From Candidatus Thalassarchaeaceae archaeon (GTDB lineage Archaea > Thermoplasmatota > Poseidoniia > Poseidoniales > Thalassarchaeaceae), in assembly GCA_963580235.1 (NCBI GenBank), contig CAUZJP010000001.1:1-30781 (forward strand): a DNA stretch of 30,781 nt, given 5' to 3'. The notes beneath the pieces are model-generated. The model ran no database searches, was not told the DNA's origin, and was given only the letters and a program-made list of their open reading frames with translations. The translations under genes and the position numbers were made by a program. This document shows, piece after piece, positions 17,737-29,835 of the stretch (position 1 is its first letter; each line of letters opens with the position of its first letter).

Positions 17737-18757
17737 GTTGTGCTTGTTCAAGGTAGGGCTGTGCCCAAGTGTCGCCTCCAGTGACCAACCTTCTGGCAAG
17801 GAAGAAGGCGGCAGCAAATTCCTCTGCTTCCAAGAGAGTCCGTAACTTCTCTTCATCATCAGATTCCCTCGCCTCCTCCTCGGTTGGTAGGGCAAGTTCT
17901 TCATCGGGAGATGCAACCTTCATCGCTAGCGCCTCCATCCGTTCTAGGAACATCTCACGGGTGTCAGCGCTGGGTGCTTTCCATCGCTTGCCGGCACCAT
18001 CCATTCGTTTCTCCATCCGTACACGGAAGTTGTCGCGGGTAGGTAGTTGGGGGAAGTGAGTTTGGGCTTGGTCGTAGCAGAACCAGGCATCATCGACCTC
18101 GCCGCGCTTTTCATGCAGCCTGCCGAGTTCAGTCCACGCTTCATGGTTCATTGGTCGGTGGGCGAGGAGCCGTCGAATGAGTCTGATAAAGGCCTCTTCG
18201 TCCACAGTGCGCACTCTCTCCATCCGGCGACCGAAGAGGATGTTTGCGCGTGGGTCTGAGAGATCTAGTTTGAGTACTCTAGCCTCAAAATCCGAAATGC
18301 CGGTGGGGCCGATGATGGACCACCACGCATCAGGGTCGAGAGGGTCGGTGTCGAGCGCTGCATTGAGCAATTCTCCACCATGTGTGAGCATTTCCAAGGA
18401 ACCGAGTTGGCCCAGCTGCTCGGGGTCTCTTCCAAGGATTGTGAAGAGATCCTCGAGGACTGCGCGCAAGCCGTCAGAATCCGATAGAAGAAGTTTGACT
18501 TCGGTTAAGATGGTCCAATTAGCCTCGTGAGTGAAGTCGTGCAGGACTGCCTGTCGGGCACTCTGTTCGGCCCATGAGAGGTTCTTCGCCATATGAGCCG
18601 GGTCACTCTGTGCCAACTTGAGGAACTTCTTGGCCTGCGCTCGATGGCGATTACCCAAGCTTCGCCTCGGGTGCTGTAATCCGCTACCGCTCTGCTCGAC
18701 CACGATGGCACGCCGTCGTTCAAGCGTCAATGAACCTTCGGCAACCTGTGCCTTCAT
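17720..18757 (-). CDS. Hypothetical TPR-containing protein
   Basis: 345 aa, ATGA-coupled to the UbiD-family gene. A clear TPR-like unit: PMNHEAWTELGRLHEKRGEVDDAWFCYDQA..FP. Confidence 0.7.
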   Translation of the reverse strand: MKAQVAEGSLTLERRRAIVVEQSGSGLQHPRRSLGNRHRAQAKKFLKLAQSDPAHMAKNLSWAEQSARQAVLHDFTHEANWTILTEVKLLLSDSDGLRAVLEDLFTILGRDPEQLGQLGSLEMLTHGGELLNAALDTDPLDPDAWWSIIGPTGISDFEARVLKLDLSDPRANILFGRRMERVRTVDEEAFIRLIRRLLAHRPMNHEAWTELGRLHEKRGEVDDAWFCYDQAQTHFPQLPTRDNFRVRMEKRMDGAGKRWKAPSADTREMFLERMEALAMKVASPDEELALPTEEEARESDDEEKLRTLLEAEEFAAAFFLARRLVTGGDTWAQPYLEQAQLNLDQ

Positions 18758-20019
18758 GTCACTGATGTGAAAGGACCTTTGTCGCTTCCGAATGGAATCG
18801 TCGCATCGTAGCCAATCTTTGATGTCAAGCCATCCTCGCTCCGGGTCGGGTCAAGGCTACTTCCCCGCTGATTAGTCAGTATGATGGTGTCTCTATCGGG
18901 CTGCCACCGGGTCATGAGCGCCCACTCTACCCTTACAGGATCCGCAGGGTCAACATCGGTGTCAACAATGGTGACCGCCTTCATCGAGGTGTGACCGGCG
19001 AAGGCAGCCATAATTGCCGCATTTGCGTCATCAGCCGATTTCGGTTCGATTTGAACGACCGCAGACAACCAACCAGAGCCACCTTCCGTCATCACCACAT
19101 CAGTGCATGTGCAGACCTCAGAAACGGCCGCCTTGATGGTCGGTGCTCGCGGCAGCCCCATCAGGGCGCGGTGTTCACTACCGGCAGGCAGGATGGCGTG
19201 GAATATGGGGTCATTTCGATGGTGGATCGAGTGGATTTCGATAACCGGCTCCTGTCGAACATCGTCTACCGTCCCAGTGATGTCAACATAGGGCCCCTCA
19301 TCATCATCCTGCAGAGTGATGGTGGCCGCCATAGCGTATTCCGAATCGGCTGGCACTTCAATGCCGTTTGAGAGTTTGACCAGTTCGAGGGGCTTTCCGT
19401 AGAATTTCTCGTGTAACGCAGCAGCAACCGCGAGCTCGTCAATGGGCTCATCGAAGGACATCGCTGCGGCGAGTAGAACGCATGGGTCCGCTCCGTTCAC
19501 GATGGCGATGGGGAGTGGCTCACCCGCGGCGCGAGACTCGTTCACCATAGTGCGCAAATGTCGCGGCACCAGCCTCGCCACCACATGATTCGCATCTCGT
19601 ACGAACTGCCGATGGTAGGAGACATTTCGGTTTCCGCCCCATTCGGCGATGACTATGCTCGCAGACATGTAGCGACCTCTGTCCTCTGGCCAGTGATGGG
19701 GAATCGGTAGTTGATGGAGGTCTACCGGGTCGATTGAATTCTCGAATACGGGAGCATCTCCCGCGCAGGATACGGATTCACTTCTGTTGTTCATCGCCCA
19801 TCCGAGAACATCGATCACATCTGATTCTGAGATGTCGAAGTTTGAGGCCAAATTATGCCTCATACAGATATTCATTGCCGCCCGGTGGCCCGGTGCACCC
19901 AGAACTTCATCAAAGACAAGGGTCCTCCCGCGATGCTCCAAAGCAATCTCTCTCATTCCTCCGACGGGGTCTACTGAGGTGATATGCATCGCCTCACCGA
20001 GGTGCTCCCTGAAGGTCAT
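18754..20019 (-). CDS. UbiD-family prFMN-dependent decarboxylase, candidate trans-anhydromevalonate-5-phosphate decarboxylase
   Basis: DLHQLPIPHHWPEDRGRY, NVSYHR, RHL, EGPYVDITG, VDTDVDP..VEWALMTR and GSSLDP. At 421 aa it is in the size range of the short archaeal UbiD subgroup. The substrate is inferred from context. Confidence 0.85.
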   Translation of the reverse strand: MTFREHLGEAMHITSVDPVGGMREIALEHRGRTLVFDEVLGAPGHRAAMNICMRHNLASNFDISESDVIDVLGWAMNNRSESVSCAGDAPVFENSIDPVDLHQLPIPHHWPEDRGRYMSASIVIAEWGGNRNVSYHRQFVRDANHVVARLVPRHLRTMVNESRAAGEPLPIAIVNGADPCVLLAAAMSFDEPIDELAVAAALHEKFYGKPLELVKLSNGIEVPADSEYAMAATITLQDDDEGPYVDITGTVDDVRQEPVIEIHSIHHRNDPIFHAILPAGSEHRALMGLPRAPTIKAAVSEVCTCTDVVMTEGGSGWLSAVVQIEPKSADDANAAIMAAFAGHTSMKAVTIVDTDVDPADPVRVEWALMTRWQPDRDTIILTNQRGSSLDPTRSEDGLTSKIGYDATIPFGSDKGPFTSVT

Positions 20020-22536: not shown

Positions 22537-22576
22537 GTCCTCGTGCGCGGGTGCTCGCCCGCGCAGGGGACTTTAT
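22537..22576 (+). terminator. GC-rich stem-loop with a short U-tract after the desaturase (possible terminator or RNA-stabilising hairpin)
   Basis: Perfect arms TGCGCGGG (22544-22551) and CCCGCGCA (22558-22565) around a 6-nt loop, extended by GTCCTC/GGGGAC and followed by TTTAT. Confidence 0.45.
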
Positions 22577-22595
22577 CAGTGGAGGGCAGGTCGGC
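22571..22595 (+). promoter_or_regulatory. Putative fusA promoter: TATA-like box plus GGCAGGTCGGC
   Basis: CTTTATCAG (22571-22579), then the same 11-mer at 22585-22595, 22 nt before the ATG (21 nt for rps12). Confidence 0.45.
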
Positions 22596-22617
22596 CGCGA
22601 CACCAAAGGTGGACCAC

Positions 22618-24825
22618 ATGGGACGCAAGGAAGACAACATCGCAAAGGCCACAGAAGTCATGCACATACGATCGCAGATTCGAAACCTCTGCATCGCTGC
22701 TCACATCGACCACGGAAAGACCACTCTCTCTGACAATTTGATCGCTGGCGCCGGGATGATGAGTGAGGAATTGGCAGGCAAGGCCCGAGTTCTCGATTTC
22801 GACGAGCAGGAAGCCGCACGTGGAATTACAATCAACGCTGCATCAGCATCGATGGTGCACAACATCGAGGGTACTGATTACCTAATCAATCTGATAGACA
22901 CACCCGGCCACGTCGACTTTGGTGGTGACGTTACCCGTGCCATGCGAGCGGTCGACGGCTGCTTCATCCTCACCTGTGCGGTTGAGGGTGCCATGCCTCA
23001 GACCGAGACGGTGGTCCGCCAGGCACTCAAGGAGAAGGTGAAGCCAGTGTTGTTCATCAACAAGGTGGACCGCCTCATCAACGAACTTCAGGTAACGCCA
23101 GAGGATATGCAGGAGCGATTCATGGGCCAGATTCAGAAGGTCAACAAACTGATTCGCCAATTCGCGCCCGAGGAGCACAAGAAGGACTGGCTGGTCAGCG
23201 TTGCTGACGGCACGGTCGCCTTTGGTTCAGCATACCACAACTGGGGGATTACAGTTCCATACATGCAGAAGTCCGGCATTTCATTCAAGGACATCTTTGA
23301 TTATTGTAACGACGAAAATCAAGAGGAGTTGGCTGAGAAAGCGCCTGTTCACGAGGTGCTTCTAGATATGGCGGTATCACAACTACCCGGCCCAGTCGAG
23401 GCCCAAGAATACCGAATTCCCAACATTTGGACTGGTGATTTAGAATCAGAATTGGGCAAGGCGATGATGACTTGCGATCCTGAAGGGCCGCTTGCTCTGA
23501 TGATTACCAAGATTTGGATGGATCCCCACGCTGGTGAAGTAGCAGTCGGCCGCCTATACTCTGGTACGGTTAACCACGGAGAGAGCGTTTGGGCGATTGG
23601 CGGTGCAAAGGCCGAGCGCGTTCAACAGGTCAGCATGATGGTCGGCGCTGATAGAATCGCGGTTCCGATGATTGTAGCTGGGAACATTGCAGCGATCACC
23701 GGAATCCGCTCAGCCGCTGCTGGAGTGACAATCGGTCGAGAGAGTGACATGGTTCCATTCGAAGCCATTCGCCACTACTCTGAACCTGTCGTGACAGTAG
23801 CAGTCGAACCCAAGTCAATGAAAGACCTTCCCAAGTTCATCGATGCACTGCGATCCCTTGCGAAGGCCGACGCCTCGCTCGAGGTTCGGACTAATGCCGA
23901 GACCGGGGAGGCACTTCTCGCCGGAATGGGCGAACTCCACTTGGAGATCACAGTCTACCGAATTGAGGAGGAGCAGGGGATCAAGGTCTCCGTCTCCGAG
24001 CCAATCGTCGTCTACCGGGAAACCGTCTCTGGAACCAATCGAGGCTCCTCGTTCGAGGGCAAGTCACCCAACCGACACAATCGATTCTACATCGAGGTGG
24101 AACAACTCTCCCCGGAAGTCGTCCAAGGACTGCGTGAAGGCGAGTTCGGTAGCGGCACAATCCGACCGAAAGATGGCAAGGAGGTCGGCCGGAAGTTCGG
24201 CGAGTACGGAATGGACAAGGACAAGATGCGCAAGATTTACGCCATCAACGGGACCAATGTCCTAGTCAACGACACAAAGGGTATCCAGTATCTTCATGAG
24301 ACCAAGGAACTACTCATCGAATCGTTCAACGAAGTATGCACGAAGGGCCCGATTGCTGAGGAGCCGATTATGGGCGTCATGGTCCGGCTGGTGGATGCAA
24401 AGCTCCACGAGGACGCCATTCACCGCGGTCCTGCGCAGACCATTCCAGCGATGCGGAACGCAATCAAGGGTGCTATGGTACGCGCTGGTTCTGTTCTCAT
24501 GGAGCCGATTCAGAAGTTGAATGTCTCAGTGCCGAATGACTGGCTCGGCGGCGTCACTCGTGAGTTGACAATGCGCCGTGGTGAGATTGAGGATATGCCA
24601 TCGGATGGTGAGATTACAACTGTGATTGGAAAAGTACCAGTCGCTGAAACCTTCGGATTCTCCAATGACATCCGTGCGGCCAGCCAAGGTCGCGCGGTAT
24701 GGAATACCGAGAATTGCGGCTTCGAAGAGTTACCTCGTAGCCTACTCGCTGATACGGTCGCTGTGATTCGAGAGCGCAAGGGCCTAAAGCCAGATATTCC
24801 CGGTGAATCCTACTACGCCGATTGA
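22618..24825 (+). CDS. fusA: Translation elongation factor EF-2 (aEF-2)
   Basis: AHIDHGKTTLSD, RGITI, DTPGHVDF, NKVD and the diphthamide loop HEDAIHRGPAQ. AAGGTG SD before the ATG at 22618. Confidence 0.98.
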   Translation: MGRKEDNIAKATEVMHIRSQIRNLCIAAHIDHGKTTLSDNLIAGAGMMSEELAGKARVLDFDEQEAARGITINAASASMVHNIEGTDYLINLIDTPGHVDFGGDVTRAMRAVDGCFILTCAVEGAMPQTETVVRQALKEKVKPVLFINKVDRLINELQVTPEDMQERFMGQIQKVNKLIRQFAPEEHKKDWLVSVADGTVAFGSAYHNWGITVPYMQKSGISFKDIFDYCNDENQEELAEKAPVHEVLLDMAVSQLPGPVEAQEYRIPNIWTGDLESELGKAMMTCDPEGPLALMITKIWMDPHAGEVAVGRLYSGTVNHGESVWAIGGAKAERVQQVSMMVGADRIAVPMIVAGNIAAITGIRSAAAGVTIGRESDMVPFEAIRHYSEPVVTVAVEPKSMKDLPKFIDALRSLAKADASLEVRTNAETGEALLAGMGELHLEITVYRIEEEQGIKVSVSEPIVVYRETVSGTNRGSSFEGKSPNRHNRFYIEVEQLSPEVVQGLREGEFGSGTIRPKDGKEVGRKFGEYGMDKDKMRKIYAINGTNVLVNDTKGIQYLHETKELLIESFNEVCTKGPIAEEPIMGVMVRLVDAKLHEDAIHRGPAQTIPAMRNAIKGAMVRAGSVLMEPIQKLNVSVPNDWLGGVTRELTMRRGEIEDMPSDGEITTVIGKVPVAETFGFSNDIRAASQGRAVWNTENCGFEELPRSLLADTVAVIRERKGLKPDIPGESYYAD

Positions 24826-24833
24826 GAACCCAA

Positions 24834-26525
24834 TCAGGCGATTCTGATAAGTTGCCAGTCGGTCAGCTCTCTCAGCACCGAAACTGCTTTCGACTCGGGC
24901 AGTGAATCGAGACAGCGATGTGCAATTGCATGGTGATCCAACGCCCTATTCTTGGCATACGCAATGGAGCCTACCGCCTCAAGTTCGGCGAGAACTGAGT
25001 CGAGGGTGCCACGAGAGGTTGCATGGTCTCCACATCCGAAGACCTGGTGGAAGGTCGGTAGAAGTGTTTCGTCTTGGCTGTGGGCGTGAATGGCAATCAG
25101 AGTCTTCTTCCCCTCAATCACATCAGAGCAGGCGGGCTTCCCGAGCGTATCGGAGTCACCAGTGGCGTCAATCAAGTCATCCATCAACTGGAAGCAGAGG
25201 CCGACATTCTCCCCCCATTCAGCAAGGCACTCGATGGTCTCATCCGAAGCACCTGATAGGAGGGCTCCAGTCCGAGCTGTGGTCGTGAACATTGCAGCAG
25301 TTTTTCCGGAAATCATGGCCAGGTAATCCGATTCTGAGACAGACTTCTGATTTTCAAAGTCCATGTCCATCTGCTGGCCTTCCGAGACATTTCTCACCAT
25401 CTGGCCAATAATCAACACAAGTTGCCTGAAGTGTTCTGCCGAGATGTGGGGTGACTCACTCAGCACCTCGAATGATACGGCAAGCATCGCATCACCAGCG
25501 TTGATTGCTGTTGGATGGTCGAATTCGATGTGAACTGCCGGGCGCCCCCTCCTCACCTCATCGTTGTCCATGATGTCGTCATGCACCAAAGTGAAGTTGT
25601 GGATGATTTCGATTGCTGCTCCAAGGTCATAGAGCCCCTCATCTGCTTGACCAGTCGCCTCTGCAACCAACCGGGGTAGGATGGCACGGAGTCTCTTACC
25701 CCCACCATCAATGAGGTGCAGCATCGCGGCCTGAAGTCGCTCATGGCTAGTCTTGGAAAGAGCGGCGCGTATTCTCGGCTCGACTTCTATACGGTGGTTT
25801 TCCAACGCATTGAGTAGAAGACTGTCCTCTCGCACCGTGACATCCCCCACCGAGTGAATTTTACCATCCTGAAAACTGGACATGTCGTCTAAATTACCCC
25901 ACCAATCGTCTAGGAACAGTTCTTTGATATGCTGGAACCATGGGGCGATAATCTCTCCATTTGCAGGGGAACGGGATACCAAGTCTTCCAATTCATCCAT
26001 GGAAACCCACCTAAATTCATCGATTTCGTTTGGATTCGGAGTTACTTCAACATCGGCACGGATGAAGAGGATGTGATCCAATTCATGTTCAATCCAGTTT
26101 TCATCAGCCCTCGCCTTGTACAGCATTCGGCTAATGAATTGGAAATTCTCAACAGGGACCGATTCAGGATCGACTCCCAATTCCTGCTGCAATTTACGAA
26201 TCGCCGCTCTCTTCGCTCCCATTCCGTCCTCCGCCTCGTTCTCTCCTTTCATGTCGAGGGGGTGGCTGCAGCAGGAGTTGGCCCATACCGAGGGGAAGGT
26301 GATTTTGGAGGAGGCTCGCTTCTGGATGAGCAATCGGTCTTTGGAATCGAATAGCAGTAGACTGAAGGCACGGTGTAATTTTCCAGAACCCAGATGACAA
26401 TCGACCTTTGAGGCTGAGCCGATGGCATTGTCCTGTTCGTCAACAAGGATGCACATCTCATCCATCATGGACATCTGCTCAGCATCGTATGAATCGCCAA
26501 GTACTGAGCCGGCCTCTCCATCCAT
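24834..26525 (-). CDS. Fusion of type-1 (Nudix) isopentenyl-diphosphate isomerase and geranylgeranyl-diphosphate synthase
   Basis: N-terminal half: CILVDEQD, HRAFS, WANSCCSHP, EHELDHIL, PNPNEI, PWF. C-terminal half: GGKRLR, FTLVHDDIMDNDEVRRG (FARM), GQQMD, KTAA, FQLMDDLID (SARM), GKKT. One uninterrupted ORF, with GGTGAG SD before the ATG at 26525. Confidence 0.92.
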   Translation of the reverse strand: MDGEAGSVLGDSYDAEQMSMMDEMCILVDEQDNAIGSASKVDCHLGSGKLHRAFSLLLFDSKDRLLIQKRASSKITFPSVWANSCCSHPLDMKGENEAEDGMGAKRAAIRKLQQELGVDPESVPVENFQFISRMLYKARADENWIEHELDHILFIRADVEVTPNPNEIDEFRWVSMDELEDLVSRSPANGEIIAPWFQHIKELFLDDWWGNLDDMSSFQDGKIHSVGDVTVREDSLLLNALENHRIEVEPRIRAALSKTSHERLQAAMLHLIDGGGKRLRAILPRLVAEATGQADEGLYDLGAAIEIIHNFTLVHDDIMDNDEVRRGRPAVHIEFDHPTAINAGDAMLAVSFEVLSESPHISAEHFRQLVLIIGQMVRNVSEGQQMDMDFENQKSVSESDYLAMISGKTAAMFTTTARTGALLSGASDETIECLAEWGENVGLCFQLMDDLIDATGDSDTLGKPACSDVIEGKKTLIAIHAHSQDETLLPTFHQVFGCGDHATSRGTLDSVLAELEAVGSIAYAKNRALDHHAIAHRCLDSLPESKAVSVLRELTDWQLIRIA

Positions 26526-26584
26526 CACTCTCACCGCCCTGCCGACCCCATTTGAGCCTTTAGTCGAGTGGTCGGCACACACTT

Positions 26585-27406
26585 TCAGTGTGTGGTTGCA
26601 AGGATCCTCGTACCGATTGGCGACAAGCCTTGGACAGCGGCGACGAGCCGTCCTGGCTGCTCGCCATCAATCAACCAAACATTAGCCACCTCTTCTGCAA
26701 TTGACGCTGCACGGTTCAACTTCAGTTCAATACCGCCTGTCACATCTATCTCTGATTCGTGTTGGCCGTTCAATGAATCACCTTGACTCCATGTTCTAAC
26801 TAACTCTGAATCAGACTCATGTGGCGGTGAGGACATCAATCCGGGAGCACCACCCATGGCGAATAGAACATGGTCGGCATCTAACTCTAAGGCCACTCTA
26901 TAGACAATATCATCTCCACTCAGGATTCCGAAATCCAATTCTCCTCCCACATTTACAACATCTCCGAACGAGACTGCTACGCGCCCGTCACCATGCGAAA
27001 AAATTGAGATATCACCTGAGAAATTCGGTCCTGTCCCAGTTGCCCAATCTCGAGGTCTTACAGAAAATGTGTCGATTCCACTCGAGGTCAAACCATCGAC
27101 TACGATCGAATTCAAGAGGTCCATGTCGCTTCTAACCGATTGAACAGCCTCGTCCTGACTACTGAGCCCCAATGTGTCCTGAGGTGTCCAACCAGGTTTC
27201 ATTCGACCCTGGGCGAGAGACCATGCCTTTGCCTTCAAATGGCCATAACTGCCTGCACCATGTACTACTATGACACGGAATCCGAGGTCGATTATATCCG
27301 ATACCGCCTCACAAAGTCCAGAAATGACATCGGGTTTTGCAGTGCACAATATACCCTTGTCGGTGATTAACCCGCCGCCGAACTTGATGACCACCAACTC
27401 TGTCAT
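26585..27406 (-). CDS. ipk: Isopentenyl phosphate kinase (amino-acid-kinase fold)
   Basis: VIKFGGGLITDK, VHGAGSYGH (IPK His), SFGDVV, ILSGDDI and DVTGGIELK. Directly upstream of the IDI-GGPPS gene. Confidence 0.9.
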   Translation of the reverse strand: MTELVVIKFGGGLITDKGILCTAKPDVISGLCEAVSDIIDLGFRVIVVHGAGSYGHLKAKAWSLAQGRMKPGWTPQDTLGLSSQDEAVQSVRSDMDLLNSIVVDGLTSSGIDTFSVRPRDWATGTGPNFSGDISIFSHGDGRVAVSFGDVVNVGGELDFGILSGDDIVYRVALELDADHVLFAMGGAPGLMSSPPHESDSELVRTWSQGDSLNGQHESEIDVTGGIELKLNRAASIAEEVANVWLIDGEQPGRLVAAVQGLSPIGTRILATTH

Positions 27407-27433
27407 GTACTCTCGTGAGCGGCCGAGGCTGAT

Positions 27434-27826
27434 GTGGGTTGCGGGTGCCATGTCCGCCGGGTTGATGAGGGTTGGATGGGTGCGCCATCTGTGAGCGAAG
27501 GTCCATCACTAGAGGAATTCCGCCGTTGGCTCCAAGAGGAGTTAGTGATGGCTGACTCAATCAAGAGCAAGTCCCTGCGAGAGAACAGACGCTGGCAGCT
27601 GGAATCGGCACTACAAGAGGCGATGGCCTTCCATGCAAGTGTCAGCCTCCTTCAGGCAGCTGAATTACCACTCTTCGAAGAGGCTGCATCAGTGCGTCTT
27701 CTCGCCACGGAGGAGGAAGCGGCCAGTGTCAAATCTTCTGGAAGCGATGGGGATTATTGCGTAAAGTGTGATGAACCGATGGATTCTGAACTTGAATTCT
27801 GTCCAGTTTGTGGCCACTTCAAGTGA
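27434..27826 (+). CDS. Hypothetical protein with a C-terminal Zn ribbon
   Basis: Helical N-terminal part and C-terminal YCVKC-x10-FCPVCG. The start is uncertain (27434, 27473 or 27491). Confidence 0.6.
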   Translation: MGCGCHVRRVDEGWMGAPSVSEGPSLEEFRRWLQEELVMADSIKSKSLRENRRWQLESALQEAMAFHASVSLLQAAELPLFEEAASVRLLATEEEAASVKSSGSDGDYCVKCDEPMDSELEFCPVCGHFK

Positions 27827-27896: not shown

Positions 27897-28583
27897 TCAC
27901 TCTTCTTCTTCGGCCCACTGTTTGAGCATCAAATCGTACTCAACATTGTTCTCTTCGATAAGAGCACAATATGTGCCTTCCACACTTTCAGTCAGATAGA
28001 CCGTGGTTCCAGCATGATAGACGATGTCTCCGTTGGCCTGCATCTGAATGGTGTCGATTTCCAGGATTACAGGGCGATGGTGGTGAACATGACCGGCATT
28101 GGCGGCGGTGGTGACGGTTTTGGAGAGGTGGACCCATTTTCTGGAACCCGGAGAGATGCCTGCTTCAAGGTGAACTTCCAACTCATCGGGCGCACACGGG
28201 TAGTAGAGCAACTCGGGGATGTTTTCGGTAGGGAGATCCAACTCTATTTCCACTGTGTGGGCGTAGGTGGCGCGAACACTTCCTCCACGAACTTCGTACC
28301 GGCCCTTCGGGTCTGTGTTGACAATCGCCTCGATGTGCCTGTCTCGGAGCCAATGCTTGCGACGGTCCTTCCTTGCAATGGCTGTCGATAACTCACGAAT
28401 GCTGACCCAGCCGTTGATGTCCATGTCCAAGTCGAATTTCTCGGGAAAATGGCGAAGAATTCCAGCCATCCGTCGAGCGATTTGGTCTCGCTCTCTATCG
28501 TTCATGACGAACTTTCCTTCGCTGTTACAAGCGGGGCAAAGTGGTCCTTCGAAGTGACCGTGGAGGTGACACTCTCTTATCAT
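27897..28583 (-). CDS. kptA: RNA 2'-phosphotransferase (Tpt1/KptA) with an N-terminal Zn knuckle
   Basis: RECHLHG..CPAC, ILRHFPEKF, MDINGWV, DPKGRYE, VRATYAH, RKWVHLS and VYLTESV. Confidence 0.9.
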   Translation of the reverse strand: MIRECHLHGHFEGPLCPACNSEGKFVMNDRERDQIARRMAGILRHFPEKFDLDMDINGWVSIRELSTAIARKDRRKHWLRDRHIEAIVNTDPKGRYEVRGGSVRATYAHTVEIELDLPTENIPELLYYPCAPDELEVHLEAGISPGSRKWVHLSKTVTTAANAGHVHHHRPVILEIDTIQMQANGDIVYHAGTTVYLTESVEGTYCALIEENNVEYDLMLKQWAEEEE

Positions 28584-28689
28584 CGGAGGCGGCGACCGAC
28601 GCACCGTTCATGAACCCCTCGGTCAACAGTTGCCGATTACCCTCCCGTCTTTCGTCAATGATTATGACAGCGCGCCATGTGGCAGGGCT

Positions 28690-29835
28690 ATGCGTGCCGT
28701 AATTGCAGGCTACACCCGATCACCTTTCCAACCTGCCAACAAGGGTACTTTGGTGGATGTCAGACCTGAGGACTTCGCATCTCAAGTTGCCCAGGAAACT
28801 CTCTCTCGAACTGGGGTTTCTGGAGAGAATGTCGAAGACCTGATGCTCGGCTGCGCCTATCCTGAGGGTGAACAAGGGCTCAACCTCGGGCGGATTCTCA
28901 CCTACATGACCGGACTCCCCACCACAGTGCCTGGAATGACCACCAACCGTCTCTGCGGTTCTTCGATGCAGGTGATTCACAGCGCTGCGGGTGCCTTGAA
29001 GATGGGTTCAGGAGATTGCTTTCTCTGTGGCGGTGTAGAGTCCATGTCTCGGGTTCAACGGGGTGGCTTCAATCGCTCCCCGCACCCCGCACTTGAAGTT
29101 AGACTTCCAGAAGCTTACATTGCGATGGGATTGACCGCTGAGAATTTGGCGGTAAGCCATTCCATCGATCGAGTTCGTCAGGAGGAGTTTGCGCTCCGCA
29201 GCCACCAGAAGGCTGTGCGGGCTGATTCTCATTCCCACTTTGCAGACGAGTTGGTCAGCATCACCACTCCTAATGGAGAGGTAAACTCTGACGGCTGCAT
29301 CAGGGCTACGTCTACGCTTGAGGCGATGGCCGGGTTGAAGCCTGCTTTTGATGCAGCAGGGTCTGTTACCGCTGCGACCTCTTCTCCGCTAACTGATGGC
29401 GCATCATTTCTGCTCGTCTGTTCGGAGGATTTTGCGGTGGAACAGGGAATCAAACCCCTGGCTTCCATCGTCAGCACCGCGGTAGCCGGGGTGCCTCCTG
29501 AAATAATGGGGATAGGTCCTGTGCCGGCGACTCAGAAAGCCCTTTCACGCGCAGGTATTGGCCTTGATGAGGTATCTGTCATCGAATTGAATGAGGCGTT
29601 TTCAGCACAATCAATTGCGGTTCTGTCAGATCTCGGAATCGATGACGATGACCCACGCGTCAATATTGATGGAGGTTCCCTAGCCATCGGTCATCCGCTC
29701 GGTGCGAGCGGCGCCAGAATCACAGGGAAAGCGGCGAGTCTGCTGGAGCGAGTCGGGGGCCAATACGCGCTTGCTACGATGTGTATTGGGGGCGGCATGG
29801 GTATCGCCACAATCCTTGAATCATGGCAGCCATAA
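28690..29835 (+). CDS. Acetyl-CoA C-acyltransferase (thiolase), bacterial FadA-like type
   Basis: NRLCGSSMQ (nucleophile Cys), GGVESMS, MGLTAENLA, NEAFSAQ, GHPLGASG and TMCIGGGMG. Confidence 0.93.
   Translation: MRAVIAGYTRSPFQPANKGTLVDVRPEDFASQVAQETLSRTGVSGENVEDLMLGCAYPEGEQGLNLGRILTYMTGLPTTVPGMTTNRLCGSSMQVIHSAAGALKMGSGDCFLCGGVESMSRVQRGGFNRSPHPALEVRLPEAYIAMGLTAENLAVSHSIDRVRQEEFALRSHQKAVRADSHSHFADELVSITTPNGEVNSDGCIRATSTLEAMAGLKPAFDAAGSVTAATSSPLTDGASFLLVCSEDFAVEQGIKPLASIVSTAVAGVPPEIMGIGPVPATQKALSRAGIGLDEVSVIELNEAFSAQSIAVLSDLGIDDDDPRVNIDGGSLAIGHPLGASGARITGKAASLLERVGGQYALATMCIGGGMGIATILESWQP

What the first reader, a model, noticed from the sequence alone, without database searches (positions are those of the whole stretch)
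24834..26525. Eukaryote-like type-1 IDI fused to an archaeal-type GGPP synthase
Seen: one ORF with IDI1 (~25850-26525) and a trans-prenyltransferase (~24834-25830). The IDI part has features I associate with eukaryotic rather than E. coli-type IDI1: the N-terminal 'YDAEQ..MMDEMCILVDEQD' helix, the CCSHP motif, the insertion before 'GAKRAAIRKL..ELG', and the C-terminal 'PWF..I..LFL..WW'. Phe at -5 of the FARM (FTLVH-DD) fits a short-chain (C20) product. Established: most archaea use the FMN-dependent type-2 IDI, with type 1 mainly in haloarchaea. Inference: a bifunctional enzyme channelling IPP to DMAPP to GGPP, co-transcribed with ipk. It is evolutionarily informative (direction of transfer with eukaryotes) and could be useful for terpenoid engineering.
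Basis: partly seen in the sequence, partly recalled or inferred. Interest (0 to 1): 0.62.

Follow-up and report, generated by a model that had tools for sequence, protein, structure and literature searches.

The report
Eukaryote-like IDI fused to archaeal GGPP synthase
A Marine Group II archaeon makes one protein that joins a eukaryote-type isopentenyl-diphosphate isomerase to its own archaeal geranylgeranyl-diphosphate synthase; related genomes show the isomerase replaced the usual archaeal type-2 enzyme at the same spot before the two genes fused.

Summary
Window 24834-26525 (-) is one intact ORF with a type-1 IDI domain, a linker of about 9 residues and a short-chain trans-prenyl diphosphate synthase domain. 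It lies 59 nt downstream of ipk.

- **IDI half:** it is of the eukaryotic long form. It scores 215 bits against human IDI1 and 62 against E. coli IDI, and its fold matches human IDI1 (TM 0.94).
- **Synthase half:** it is archaeal and vertically inherited.
- **Not an artefact:** full-length fusions occur in nearly all genomes searched of both main Poseidoniales families. All catalytic residues of both domains are invariant in 121 homologues.
- **Only IDI present:** no type-2 IDI was found in 105 Marine Group II genomes.

New here is the history of the locus. Two lineages of the same class (f2, f5) carry idi2-ggpps, and in f2 the wider order EF-2 | ggpps-idi2-ipk | KptA matches the window. A sister order (f4, probably Marine Group III) has a stand-alone eukaryote-like idi1 overlapping ggpps. 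The two main families have the fusion.

So idi2 was displaced in situ by idi1, idi1 apparently moved between the two orders, and then it fused with ggpps.

Enzyme activity, product length, channelling and co-transcription are untested. I found no paper describing the fusion.

The parts
24834..26525 (-). CDS of the IDI1::GGPPS fusion (563 aa from ATG 26525; stop codon 24834-24836). The open frame reaches up to a GTG at 26582.
25842..26525 (-). Type-1 IDI domain of the eukaryotic long form, residues 20-247 (numbered from the GTG). Cys105 lies in SCCSH at 26262-26276; Glu165/Glu167 lie in EHE.
25815..25841 (-). Short linker (about VGDVTVRED) between the complete IDI C-terminus and the first helix of the synthase. 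Length and sequence vary among homologues (4-20 aa).
24837..25814 (-). Short-chain trans-prenyl diphosphate synthase domain (archaeal GGPPS/IdsA type), residues 257-582.
25566..25595 (-). Phe330 (-5) and first aspartate-rich motif: FTLVHDDIMD.
25167..25181 (-). Second aspartate-rich motif: DDLID.
26585..27451 (-). Isopentenyl phosphate kinase gene, immediately upstream on the same strand. Its stop lies 59 nt before ATG 26525.
22543..24825 (+). EF-2 gene, convergent neighbour. It anchors the conserved synteny with the idi2-bearing relative.
27897..28604 (-). Tpt1/KptA RNA 2'-phosphotransferase gene, the other synteny anchor.

Best explanation
The gene encodes a bifunctional enzyme of a Marine Group II archaeon (Poseidoniales, Thalassarchaeaceae-like).

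Inferred mechanism:
- The archaeal mevalonate route ends with IPK making IPP.
- The N-terminal type-1 IDI domain interconverts IPP and DMAPP. Cys105 and Glu167 are the acid/base pair; His63, His70, His107, Glu165 and Glu167 hold the metal.
- The C-terminal synthase domain condenses DMAPP with three IPP to a short-chain product, most likely C20 GGPP. It uses the two DDxxD motifs, and Phe330 limits chain length.
- GGPP would feed ether lipids and other GGPP-derived isoprenoids.
- The fusion fixes a 1:1 ratio and places primer synthesis beside elongation. True channelling is not shown.

History, shown by comparison:
- The ancestral locus was ipk-idi2-ggpps.
- idi2 was displaced in situ by a eukaryote-like idi1, which overlapped ggpps as in the sister order f4.
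- Loss of the stop then joined the two genes end to end in the ancestor of the two main Poseidoniales families.
For: **Architecture and folds**
- Domain architecture and family scores.
- AF2 model: pLDDT 88.9.
- Foldseek: human IDI1 TMt 0.94, rmsd 1.3 A; Pyrococcus and Geoglobus GGPPS TMt 0.90-0.93.
- Sequence search of solved structures: human IDI1 215 bits against E. coli 62. The best synthase hits are the same two archaeal GGPPS entries (5jfq, 1wy0), 5jfq with the same HNFTLVHDDIMD context.

**Conservation**
- More than 120 clusters of full-length homologues.
- Full-length fusions in nearly all of 118 genomes of families f1 and f3.
- Every IDI and synthase catalytic residue is invariant or nearly so in 121 sequences, and Phe330 is invariant.

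**Only IDI present**
- idi2: 0/40 in f1, 0/65 in f3, 0/43 in f4; none in the window's own genome.
- One IDI1 only in the window's own genome.

**History**
- The f2 genome G004 has EF-2 | ggpps-idi2-ipk | small ORF | KptA, the same order as the window. f5 genomes have idi2-ggpps overlapping by 4 nt.
- All 9 f4 genomes examined have idi1 then ggpps in separate frames.
- The stand-alone IDI C-terminus and the GGPPS N-terminus align across the junction.
- The GGPPS tree follows taxonomy: ((f5,f4),(f2,(f3,f1))), key branches 97-99.
- Archaeal IDI1s form one clade (SH-aLRT 93) among eukaryotic sequences.
Against: - No enzyme activity, product length or transcript was measured.
- The synthase domain falls below NCBIfam's equivalog cut-offs (IdsA_Meth 274 of 468; GGPP_syn 245 of 500). 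C20 therefore rests on Phe at -5 and on similarity to solved archaeal GGPPS.
- The backbone of the IDI tree is unresolved and its root sits on a long bacterial branch. 'Nested within eukaryotes' and 'sister to eukaryotes' cannot be told apart.
- pTM is 0.70, so the mutual orientation of the domains is uncertain and says nothing about channelling.
- The window's own genome is only 72% complete.
Confidence: 0.82

Rival explanations
1. The single ORF is an assembly or gene-calling artefact that joins two adjacent genes (idi1 and ggpps).
For: In the sister order f4 the two genes are adjacent and overlap by about 10 nt, so one indel could join them. The window comes from a fragmented MAG of 268 contigs.
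Against: Uninterrupted full-length frames of 555-666 aa occur in over 100 independent genomes, including single-contig ones (G003, G027). More than 120 protein clusters from several sources show the same. The linker is conserved in position.
Confidence: 0.01
2. The IDI-like domain is no longer an isomerase. It would act as a regulatory or Nudix-hydrolase module, for example trimming prenyl diphosphates, with isomerisation done elsewhere.
For: It belongs to the Nudix superfamily. It evolves faster than the synthase half: mean identity within f1 is 48.5% against 63.0%. Some f1 genomes have a second short Nudix/IDI-like ORF at 30-35% identity.
Against: All residues equivalent to E. coli K21, H25, H32, R51, K55, C67, H69, E87, Y104, E114, E116 and W161 are invariant in 121 fusions. 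It scores over the IPP_isom_1 equivalog cut-off. No idi2 was found in 148 f1, f3 and f4 genomes, and a mevalonate-pathway organism needs an IDI.
Confidence: 0.04
3. The synthase domain does not make mainly GGPP. It could be a bifunctional FPP/GGPP synthase like methanogen IdsA, or make C25, and the paralogue elsewhere in the genome could supply lipid GGPP.
For: The best NCBIfam model is IdsA_Meth (short-chain, 274 bits). The geranylfarnesyl model also scores 219, and all are under their cut-offs. The genome has two more polyprenyl synthases.
Against: Phe at -5 is invariant and the FARM context is identical to Geoglobus GGPPS. The full-length paralogue has Ala at -5 (EMIHTATLVHDD), which points to a longer product. 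The fused gene is the syntenic orthologue of the single-domain ggpps next to idi in all relatives.
Confidence: 0.2
4. The long-form IDI1 was not taken from a eukaryote. Either eukaryotes got it from an archaeon of this kind, or both got it from an unsampled third lineage.
For: The IDI tree backbone is unresolved and the archaeal clade is not robustly nested inside any eukaryotic group.
Against: The f2 and f5 lineages keep idi2 at the same locus, so IDI1 is derived within this class. The non-archaeal members that carry a name span metamonads, Rhizaria, oomycetes, fungi, animals and dinoflagellates, which suggests the long form is old in eukaryotes. IDI1 identity between f4 and f1/f3 (45-46%) equals that between f1 and f3 (44%). 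GGPPS identity falls from 54% to 36% over the same comparison, so the archaeal IDI1 is young relative to the class.
Confidence: 0.15

Closest known systems
Human (eukaryotic) type-1 IPP isomerase IDI1 (PDB 2icj, 2i6k, 2dho)
   Same: 215 bits over the whole domain, 44% identity in the Foldseek superposition. The N- and C-terminal extensions, the CCSHP motif and the insertion are the same. All catalytic and metal-binding residues match. Model TMt 0.94, rmsd 1.3 A.
   Different: Here it is the N-terminal half of a two-domain protein in an archaeon. It lacks any eukaryotic targeting sequence.
Archaeal GGPP synthases of Geoglobus acetivorans (5jfq) and Pyrococcus horikoshii (1wy0); methanogen IdsA (NF040698)
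   Same: These are the best sequence and fold matches. The HNFTLVHDDIMD context is identical to 5jfq, with aromatic at -5 and both DDxxD motifs.
   Different: 36-37% identity only. It falls below the NCBIfam equivalog cut-offs and carries an IDI domain at its N-terminus.
Stand-alone idi1 + ggpps pair of the sister order f4 (probably Marine Group III), and the idi2 + ggpps pair of lineages f2 and f5
   Same: Same locus and gene order; in f2 the wider neighbourhood (EF-2, ipk, KptA) also matches the window. The ggpps genes are orthologous, and f4 has the same eukaryote-like IDI1 at 50-60% identity.
   Different: They are unfused. In f2 and f5 the isomerase is the unrelated FMN-dependent type 2.
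IDI-SQS fusion of diatoms and other marine algae
   Same: It is a natural fusion with a eukaryote-type IDI1 as the N-terminal domain and an isoprenoid-chain enzyme as the C-terminal domain. Such proteins are among the best hits to this IDI domain at 54% identity (papers PMC6330534, PMC12168105).
   Different: The partner is squalene synthase (PF00494), not a prenyl diphosphate synthase, and the hosts are eukaryotes.
Uncultured-eukaryote IDI fused to a human-type (type III) GGPPS (P0141)
   Same: Same two activities in the same order on one chain.
   Different: Its synthase half is GGPS1-like (309 bits to 2q80) and only distantly related to the archaeal one (58 bits). It is an independent, convergent fusion.
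E. coli-type short IDI1 (1hzt and related entries)
   Same: Same Nudix fold family and the same catalytic residues.
   Different: 62 bits only. It lacks both terminal extensions and the 9-residue insertion, and it falls outside the 98-supported long-form clade.

Membership tests
Type-1 IPP isomerase (TIGR02150, Nudix fold) | Score over the curated equivalog cut-off | tested here: met
   173.4 bits against 105.8
Type-1 IPP isomerase (TIGR02150, Nudix fold) | Catalytic Cys and Glu plus His/Glu metal ligands (E. coli C67, E116, H25, H32, H69, E114) | tested here: met
   C105, E167, H63, H70, H107 and E165 are present, and invariant or nearly so in 121 homologues. The residue list is from my knowledge of the E. 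coli structures.
Type-1 IPP isomerase (TIGR02150, Nudix fold) | IPP/DMAPP isomerase activity | not testable with these tools
   Needs an enzyme assay.
Eukaryotic long-form IDI1 | N- and C-terminal extensions, CC motif and the insertion before the alpha-helix, relative to bacterial IDI1 | tested here: met
   Alignment with E. coli IDI and human IDI1
Eukaryotic long-form IDI1 | Groups with eukaryotic sequences to the exclusion of bacterial IDI1 | tested here: met
   Clade of 144 rows, SH-aLRT 98, excludes E. coli and a gammaproteobacterial IDI. Of the 29 non-archaeal members looked up, 13 carry an organism or eukaryote-database label, and all 13 are eukaryotes. Haloarchaeal IDI1 was not included.
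Short-chain trans-prenyl diphosphate synthase, archaeal GGPPS/IdsA type | PF00348 with both DDxxD motifs and no insertion in the first | tested here: met
   225.9 bits; DDIMD 335-339 and DDLID 468-472, invariant
Short-chain trans-prenyl diphosphate synthase, archaeal GGPPS/IdsA type | Aromatic residue five positions before the first motif (chain-length limit) | tested here: met
   F330, invariant in 121 sequences
Short-chain trans-prenyl diphosphate synthase, archaeal GGPPS/IdsA type | Score over an NCBIfam equivalog cut-off (IdsA_Meth 468, GGPP_syn 500) | tested here: not met
   274.6 and 245.5 bits. The unfused orthologues in relatives also fall below, so this reflects lineage divergence.
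Short-chain trans-prenyl diphosphate synthase, archaeal GGPPS/IdsA type | C20 product | not testable with these tools
   Needs product analysis.
Type-2 (FMN) IPP isomerase (TIGR02151) | Presence in this genome or in Marine Group II | tested here: not met
   No match over the cut-off in the window's own genome. 0/40 in f1 and 0/65 in f3. Present in f2 and f5.
Diatom-type IDI-SQS fusion | C-terminal squalene/phytoene synthase domain | tested here: not met
   The partner here is PF00348, not PF00494.

The most novel reading that the evidence does not exclude
A eukaryote-derived IDI1 displaced the ancestral idi2 at the ipk-idi-ggpps locus of the ocean's two main planktonic euryarchaeal groups. It spread between Marine Group II and the sister order f4 (probably Marine Group III) after their split. 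In Marine Group II it was then welded to GGPPS, giving a natural single-chain enzyme that makes GGPP from IPP alone. No such archaeal architecture or history turned up in my literature searches.
Probability: 0.55. Interest if true: 0.65.

Novelty: new variant of a known kind. Interest (0 to 1): 0.56.

Why it matters
- **Evolution:** it is a clean, datable case of non-orthologous displacement in a core archaeal lipid pathway. The incoming gene is of eukaryotic type, and all three stages survive in living lineages: idi2-ggpps, idi1 overlapping ggpps, and the fusion.
- **Biology of abundant archaea:** the isoprenoid supply of the most abundant surface-ocean archaea runs through a chimeric enzyme.
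- **Annotation:** pipelines name only one half ('isopentenyl-diphosphate delta-isomerase' at NCBI, 'GGPP synthase type I' at JGI). Pathway reconstructions for these archaea can therefore wrongly miss one step.
- **Engineering:** a natural IDI::GGPPS, plus a convergent eukaryotic one, gives ready-made scaffolds for terpenoid production, where synthetic fusions of this kind are built by hand.

Tried and rejected
**Rejected explanations**
- Assembly artefact: rejected by the fusion's presence in over 100 genomes.
- Bacterial-type IDI1: rejected on score, indels and tree.
- Single vertical origin of IDI1 in the class ancestor: disfavoured. f2 and f5 keep idi2 in situ, and IDI1 identity does not fall with taxonomic distance while GGPPS identity does.

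**What led nowhere**
- In the first IDI tree f4 split into two clades. This was not robust: holding f4 together is not rejected (AU p = 0.70) and even gave a better likelihood.
- Naming the nearest eukaryotic donor failed. The tree backbone is open, and most metagenomic representatives carry no name.
- The one scan of genome contigs gave only 5 loci.
The genomic context of a divergent stand-alone archaeal IDI1 (P0133) and of fusion P0098 could not be examined.
- The sigma-70 promoter and terminator scan was uninformative for an archaeon.

**Literature**
- Ten literature searches and five targeted reads found no description of the fusion. One further paper was not held.
- The two main Marine Group II genome papers do not mention IDI or mevalonate.
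- This is absence in a limited library, not proof of novelty.

Full report
**Observation**

The window holds one open frame, 24834..26582 on the minus strand, 582 aa from a GTG. Pfam finds a NUDIX domain (69-201) and polyprenyl_synt (281-506). NCBIfam places the first half in IPP_isom_1 (173 bits, cut-off 105.8). The second half scores best with short-chain IdsA (274 bits) and GGPP synthase (245 bits), both under their equivalog cut-offs.

- Homologues align from about residue 20-31.
- Residues 1-22 are disordered in the model.
- The Atlas record begins at residue 20.
- GGTGA precedes the ATG.

The gene upstream on the same strand (26585..27451) is isopentenyl phosphate kinase. Its stop lies 59 nt before that ATG.

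**The two halves**

The IDI part scores 215 bits against human IDI1 and 62 bits against E. coli IDI.
- an N-terminal extension;
- CCSHP against VCGHP;
- a 9-residue insertion before GAKRAAIRKL;
- a C-terminal WW-containing extension.

An AlphaFold2 model built on 58 homologues has mean pLDDT 88.9 and pTM 0.70. Foldseek matches its first domain to human IDI1 (TMt 0.94, rmsd 1.3 A). It matches the second to the GGPP synthases of Pyrococcus horikoshii and Geoglobus acetivorans (TMt 0.90-0.93). By sequence these are also the best solved relatives, and 5jfq has the identical HNFTLVHDDIMD context.

**Is it real and active?**

More than 120 protein clusters at 54-93% identity have the same two-domain architecture. 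Their source names include Thalassarchaeaceae, Marine Group II and Thermoplasmatota.

Among 120 genomes of the same order, the two large families (f1, which includes the window, and f3) carry full-length uninterrupted fusions almost without exception. Some of these are single-contig genomes.

In 121 fusion sequences every residue equivalent to the E. coli IDI catalytic and metal-binding set is invariant or nearly so (one sequence differs at one position). So are the synthase motifs: GGGKRLR, F330 at -5, DDIMD, RRG, GQxxD, KT, FQxMDDLID and GKxxSDxxEGKxT.

The window's genome (a MAG, 72% complete) has no type-2 IDI and only this one IDI1. No idi2 was found in 40 f1, 65 f3 or 43 f4 genomes. A mevalonate-pathway organism needs an isomerase, so this domain should be the working one.

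The genome has two further polyprenyl synthases. The complete one has Ala at -5, which suggests a longer product.

**History of the locus**

- **f2 and f5.** Two lineages of the same class lack IDI1 and have idi2. f2 is in the same order as the window.
- **Synteny in f2.** In genome G004 the order is EF-2 | ggpps <- idi2 <- ipk | small ORF | KptA. This matches the window gene for gene, except that the isomerase is type 2 and unfused.
- **f5.** idi2 and ggpps overlap by 4 nt.
- **f4.** A sister order with small genomes, probably Marine Group III (my inference), has a stand-alone eukaryote-like IDI1 of 222-305 aa in 39 of 43 genomes. In all nine loci examined it is followed at once by ggpps in another frame.
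- **The junction.** The stand-alone IDI C-terminus (...GEIHNMGEVA) and the stand-alone GGPPS N-terminus align on either side of a variable 4-20 residue linker in the fusions. This is what loss of a stop in overlapping genes would give.

**Phylogenies**

The synthase tree follows taxonomy: ((f5,f4),(f2,(f3,f1))), with the key branches at 97-99. The synthase half is therefore native and vertically inherited.

In the IDI trees:
- All long-form sequences form a clade (SH-aLRT 98) that excludes E. coli IDI, a gammaproteobacterial IDI and short Nudix paralogues.
- With balanced sampling the 34 archaeal sequences form one clade (93, not starred) among sequences that are eukaryotic wherever an organism or eukaryote-database label exists. 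Those labels are Carpediemonas, Guttulinopsis, Intoshia, catfish, Albugo, Piptocephalis, Bolinopsis, Biecheleria, MMETSP transcripts and one unnamed eukaryote.
- The backbone is unresolved, so no donor group can be named.

Mean pairwise identity separates the histories of the two halves:

| Comparison | GGPPS | IDI1 |
|---|---|---|
| f1-f3 | 53.6% | 44.2% |
| f1-f2 | 44.4% | (f2 has no IDI1) |
| f1-f4 | 35.6% | 45.2% |
| f3-f4 | 36.6% | 46.0% |

IDI1 identity stays flat where GGPPS identity falls. Together with idi2 kept in f2 and f5, this favours one acquisition followed by transfer of idi1 between the two orders, after f2 branched off. The alternative, co-residence of both genes followed by four losses, is not excluded.

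**Mechanism**

This part is inferred.
- IPK yields IPP.
- The IDI domain equilibrates IPP with DMAPP.
- The synthase domain, presumably a dimer like its relatives, elongates DMAPP with IPP to a short-chain product limited by Phe330, most likely GGPP.
- Fusion guarantees equal amounts and proximity. Channelling is possible but nothing here tests it.

**Comparison and novelty**

Natural IDI fusions are known in diatoms (IDI-SQS; PMC6330534, PMC12168105), and such proteins are among the best hits to this domain. One uncultured eukaryote has an independent IDI fusion with a human-type GGPS1.

I found no paper describing the archaeal fusion or the in-situ replacement of idi2. The proteins are in public databases but are named after one half only.

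I rate it a new variant of a known kind, of moderate to good interest.

Noticed in passing
window 18754-20019 (-): UbiD-family decarboxylase (TIGR00148, 304 bits) about 5 kb from ipk. It could be the anhydromevalonate-phosphate decarboxylase of the archaeal mevalonate route, but no specific model matched.
   Followed up: partly
window 28630-29835 (+): FadA-type acetyl-CoA C-acyltransferase (TIGR01930, 394 bits), the bacterial beta-oxidation type rather than the archaeal HMGS-associated thiolase.
   Followed up: partly
window 27434-27826 (+); L021 6993-7328: Small ORF (130 aa) with a C-terminal CxxC...CxxC motif and no family match. It is conserved in the same position between ipk and KptA in the idi2-bearing relative.
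   Followed up: partly
L002 1363-2379 (+); L003 1345-1902 (-) and 243-1340 (-): The window's genome has two further polyprenyl synthase paralogues. One has Ala at -5 of the FARM. The other is cut by the contig end and sits beside a geranylgeranyl reductase family gene.
   Followed up: partly
P0141 (556 aa, JGI metagenome contig): Independent fusion of a eukaryote-type IDI1 with a human GGPS1-like (type III) GGPP synthase. It converges on the archaeal architecture.
   Followed up: partly
P0186 (672 aa); P0134 and P0136 (1059 and 739 aa): Other IDI1 fusions among the representatives: HMG-CoA reductase followed by IDI, and IDI behind long N-terminal regions with no Pfam match.
   Followed up: no
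G019:C34:4038-4505, G059:C12:22302-22772, G047:C41:17102-17566, G011:C18:32457-32924, G009:C14:33594-34031, G023:C5:210960-211424: Some f1 genomes carry a second, short IDI/Nudix-like ORF (166-197 aa, 30-35% identity). It branches outside the long-form clade. Two copies have an in-frame TAA.
   Followed up: partly
P0133 / P0275 (235 aa, MAO69936.1, 'Euryarchaeota archaeon'): A complete stand-alone archaeal IDI1 on contigs up to 1.86 Mb, only 48-50% identical to any fusion sampled.
   Followed up: partly
G037:C2:137992-139695; G105:C29:1-1359: Two relatives show the fusion gene with a single in-frame stop (TAG, TGA). These could be sequencing errors or recent pseudogenes.
   Followed up: no
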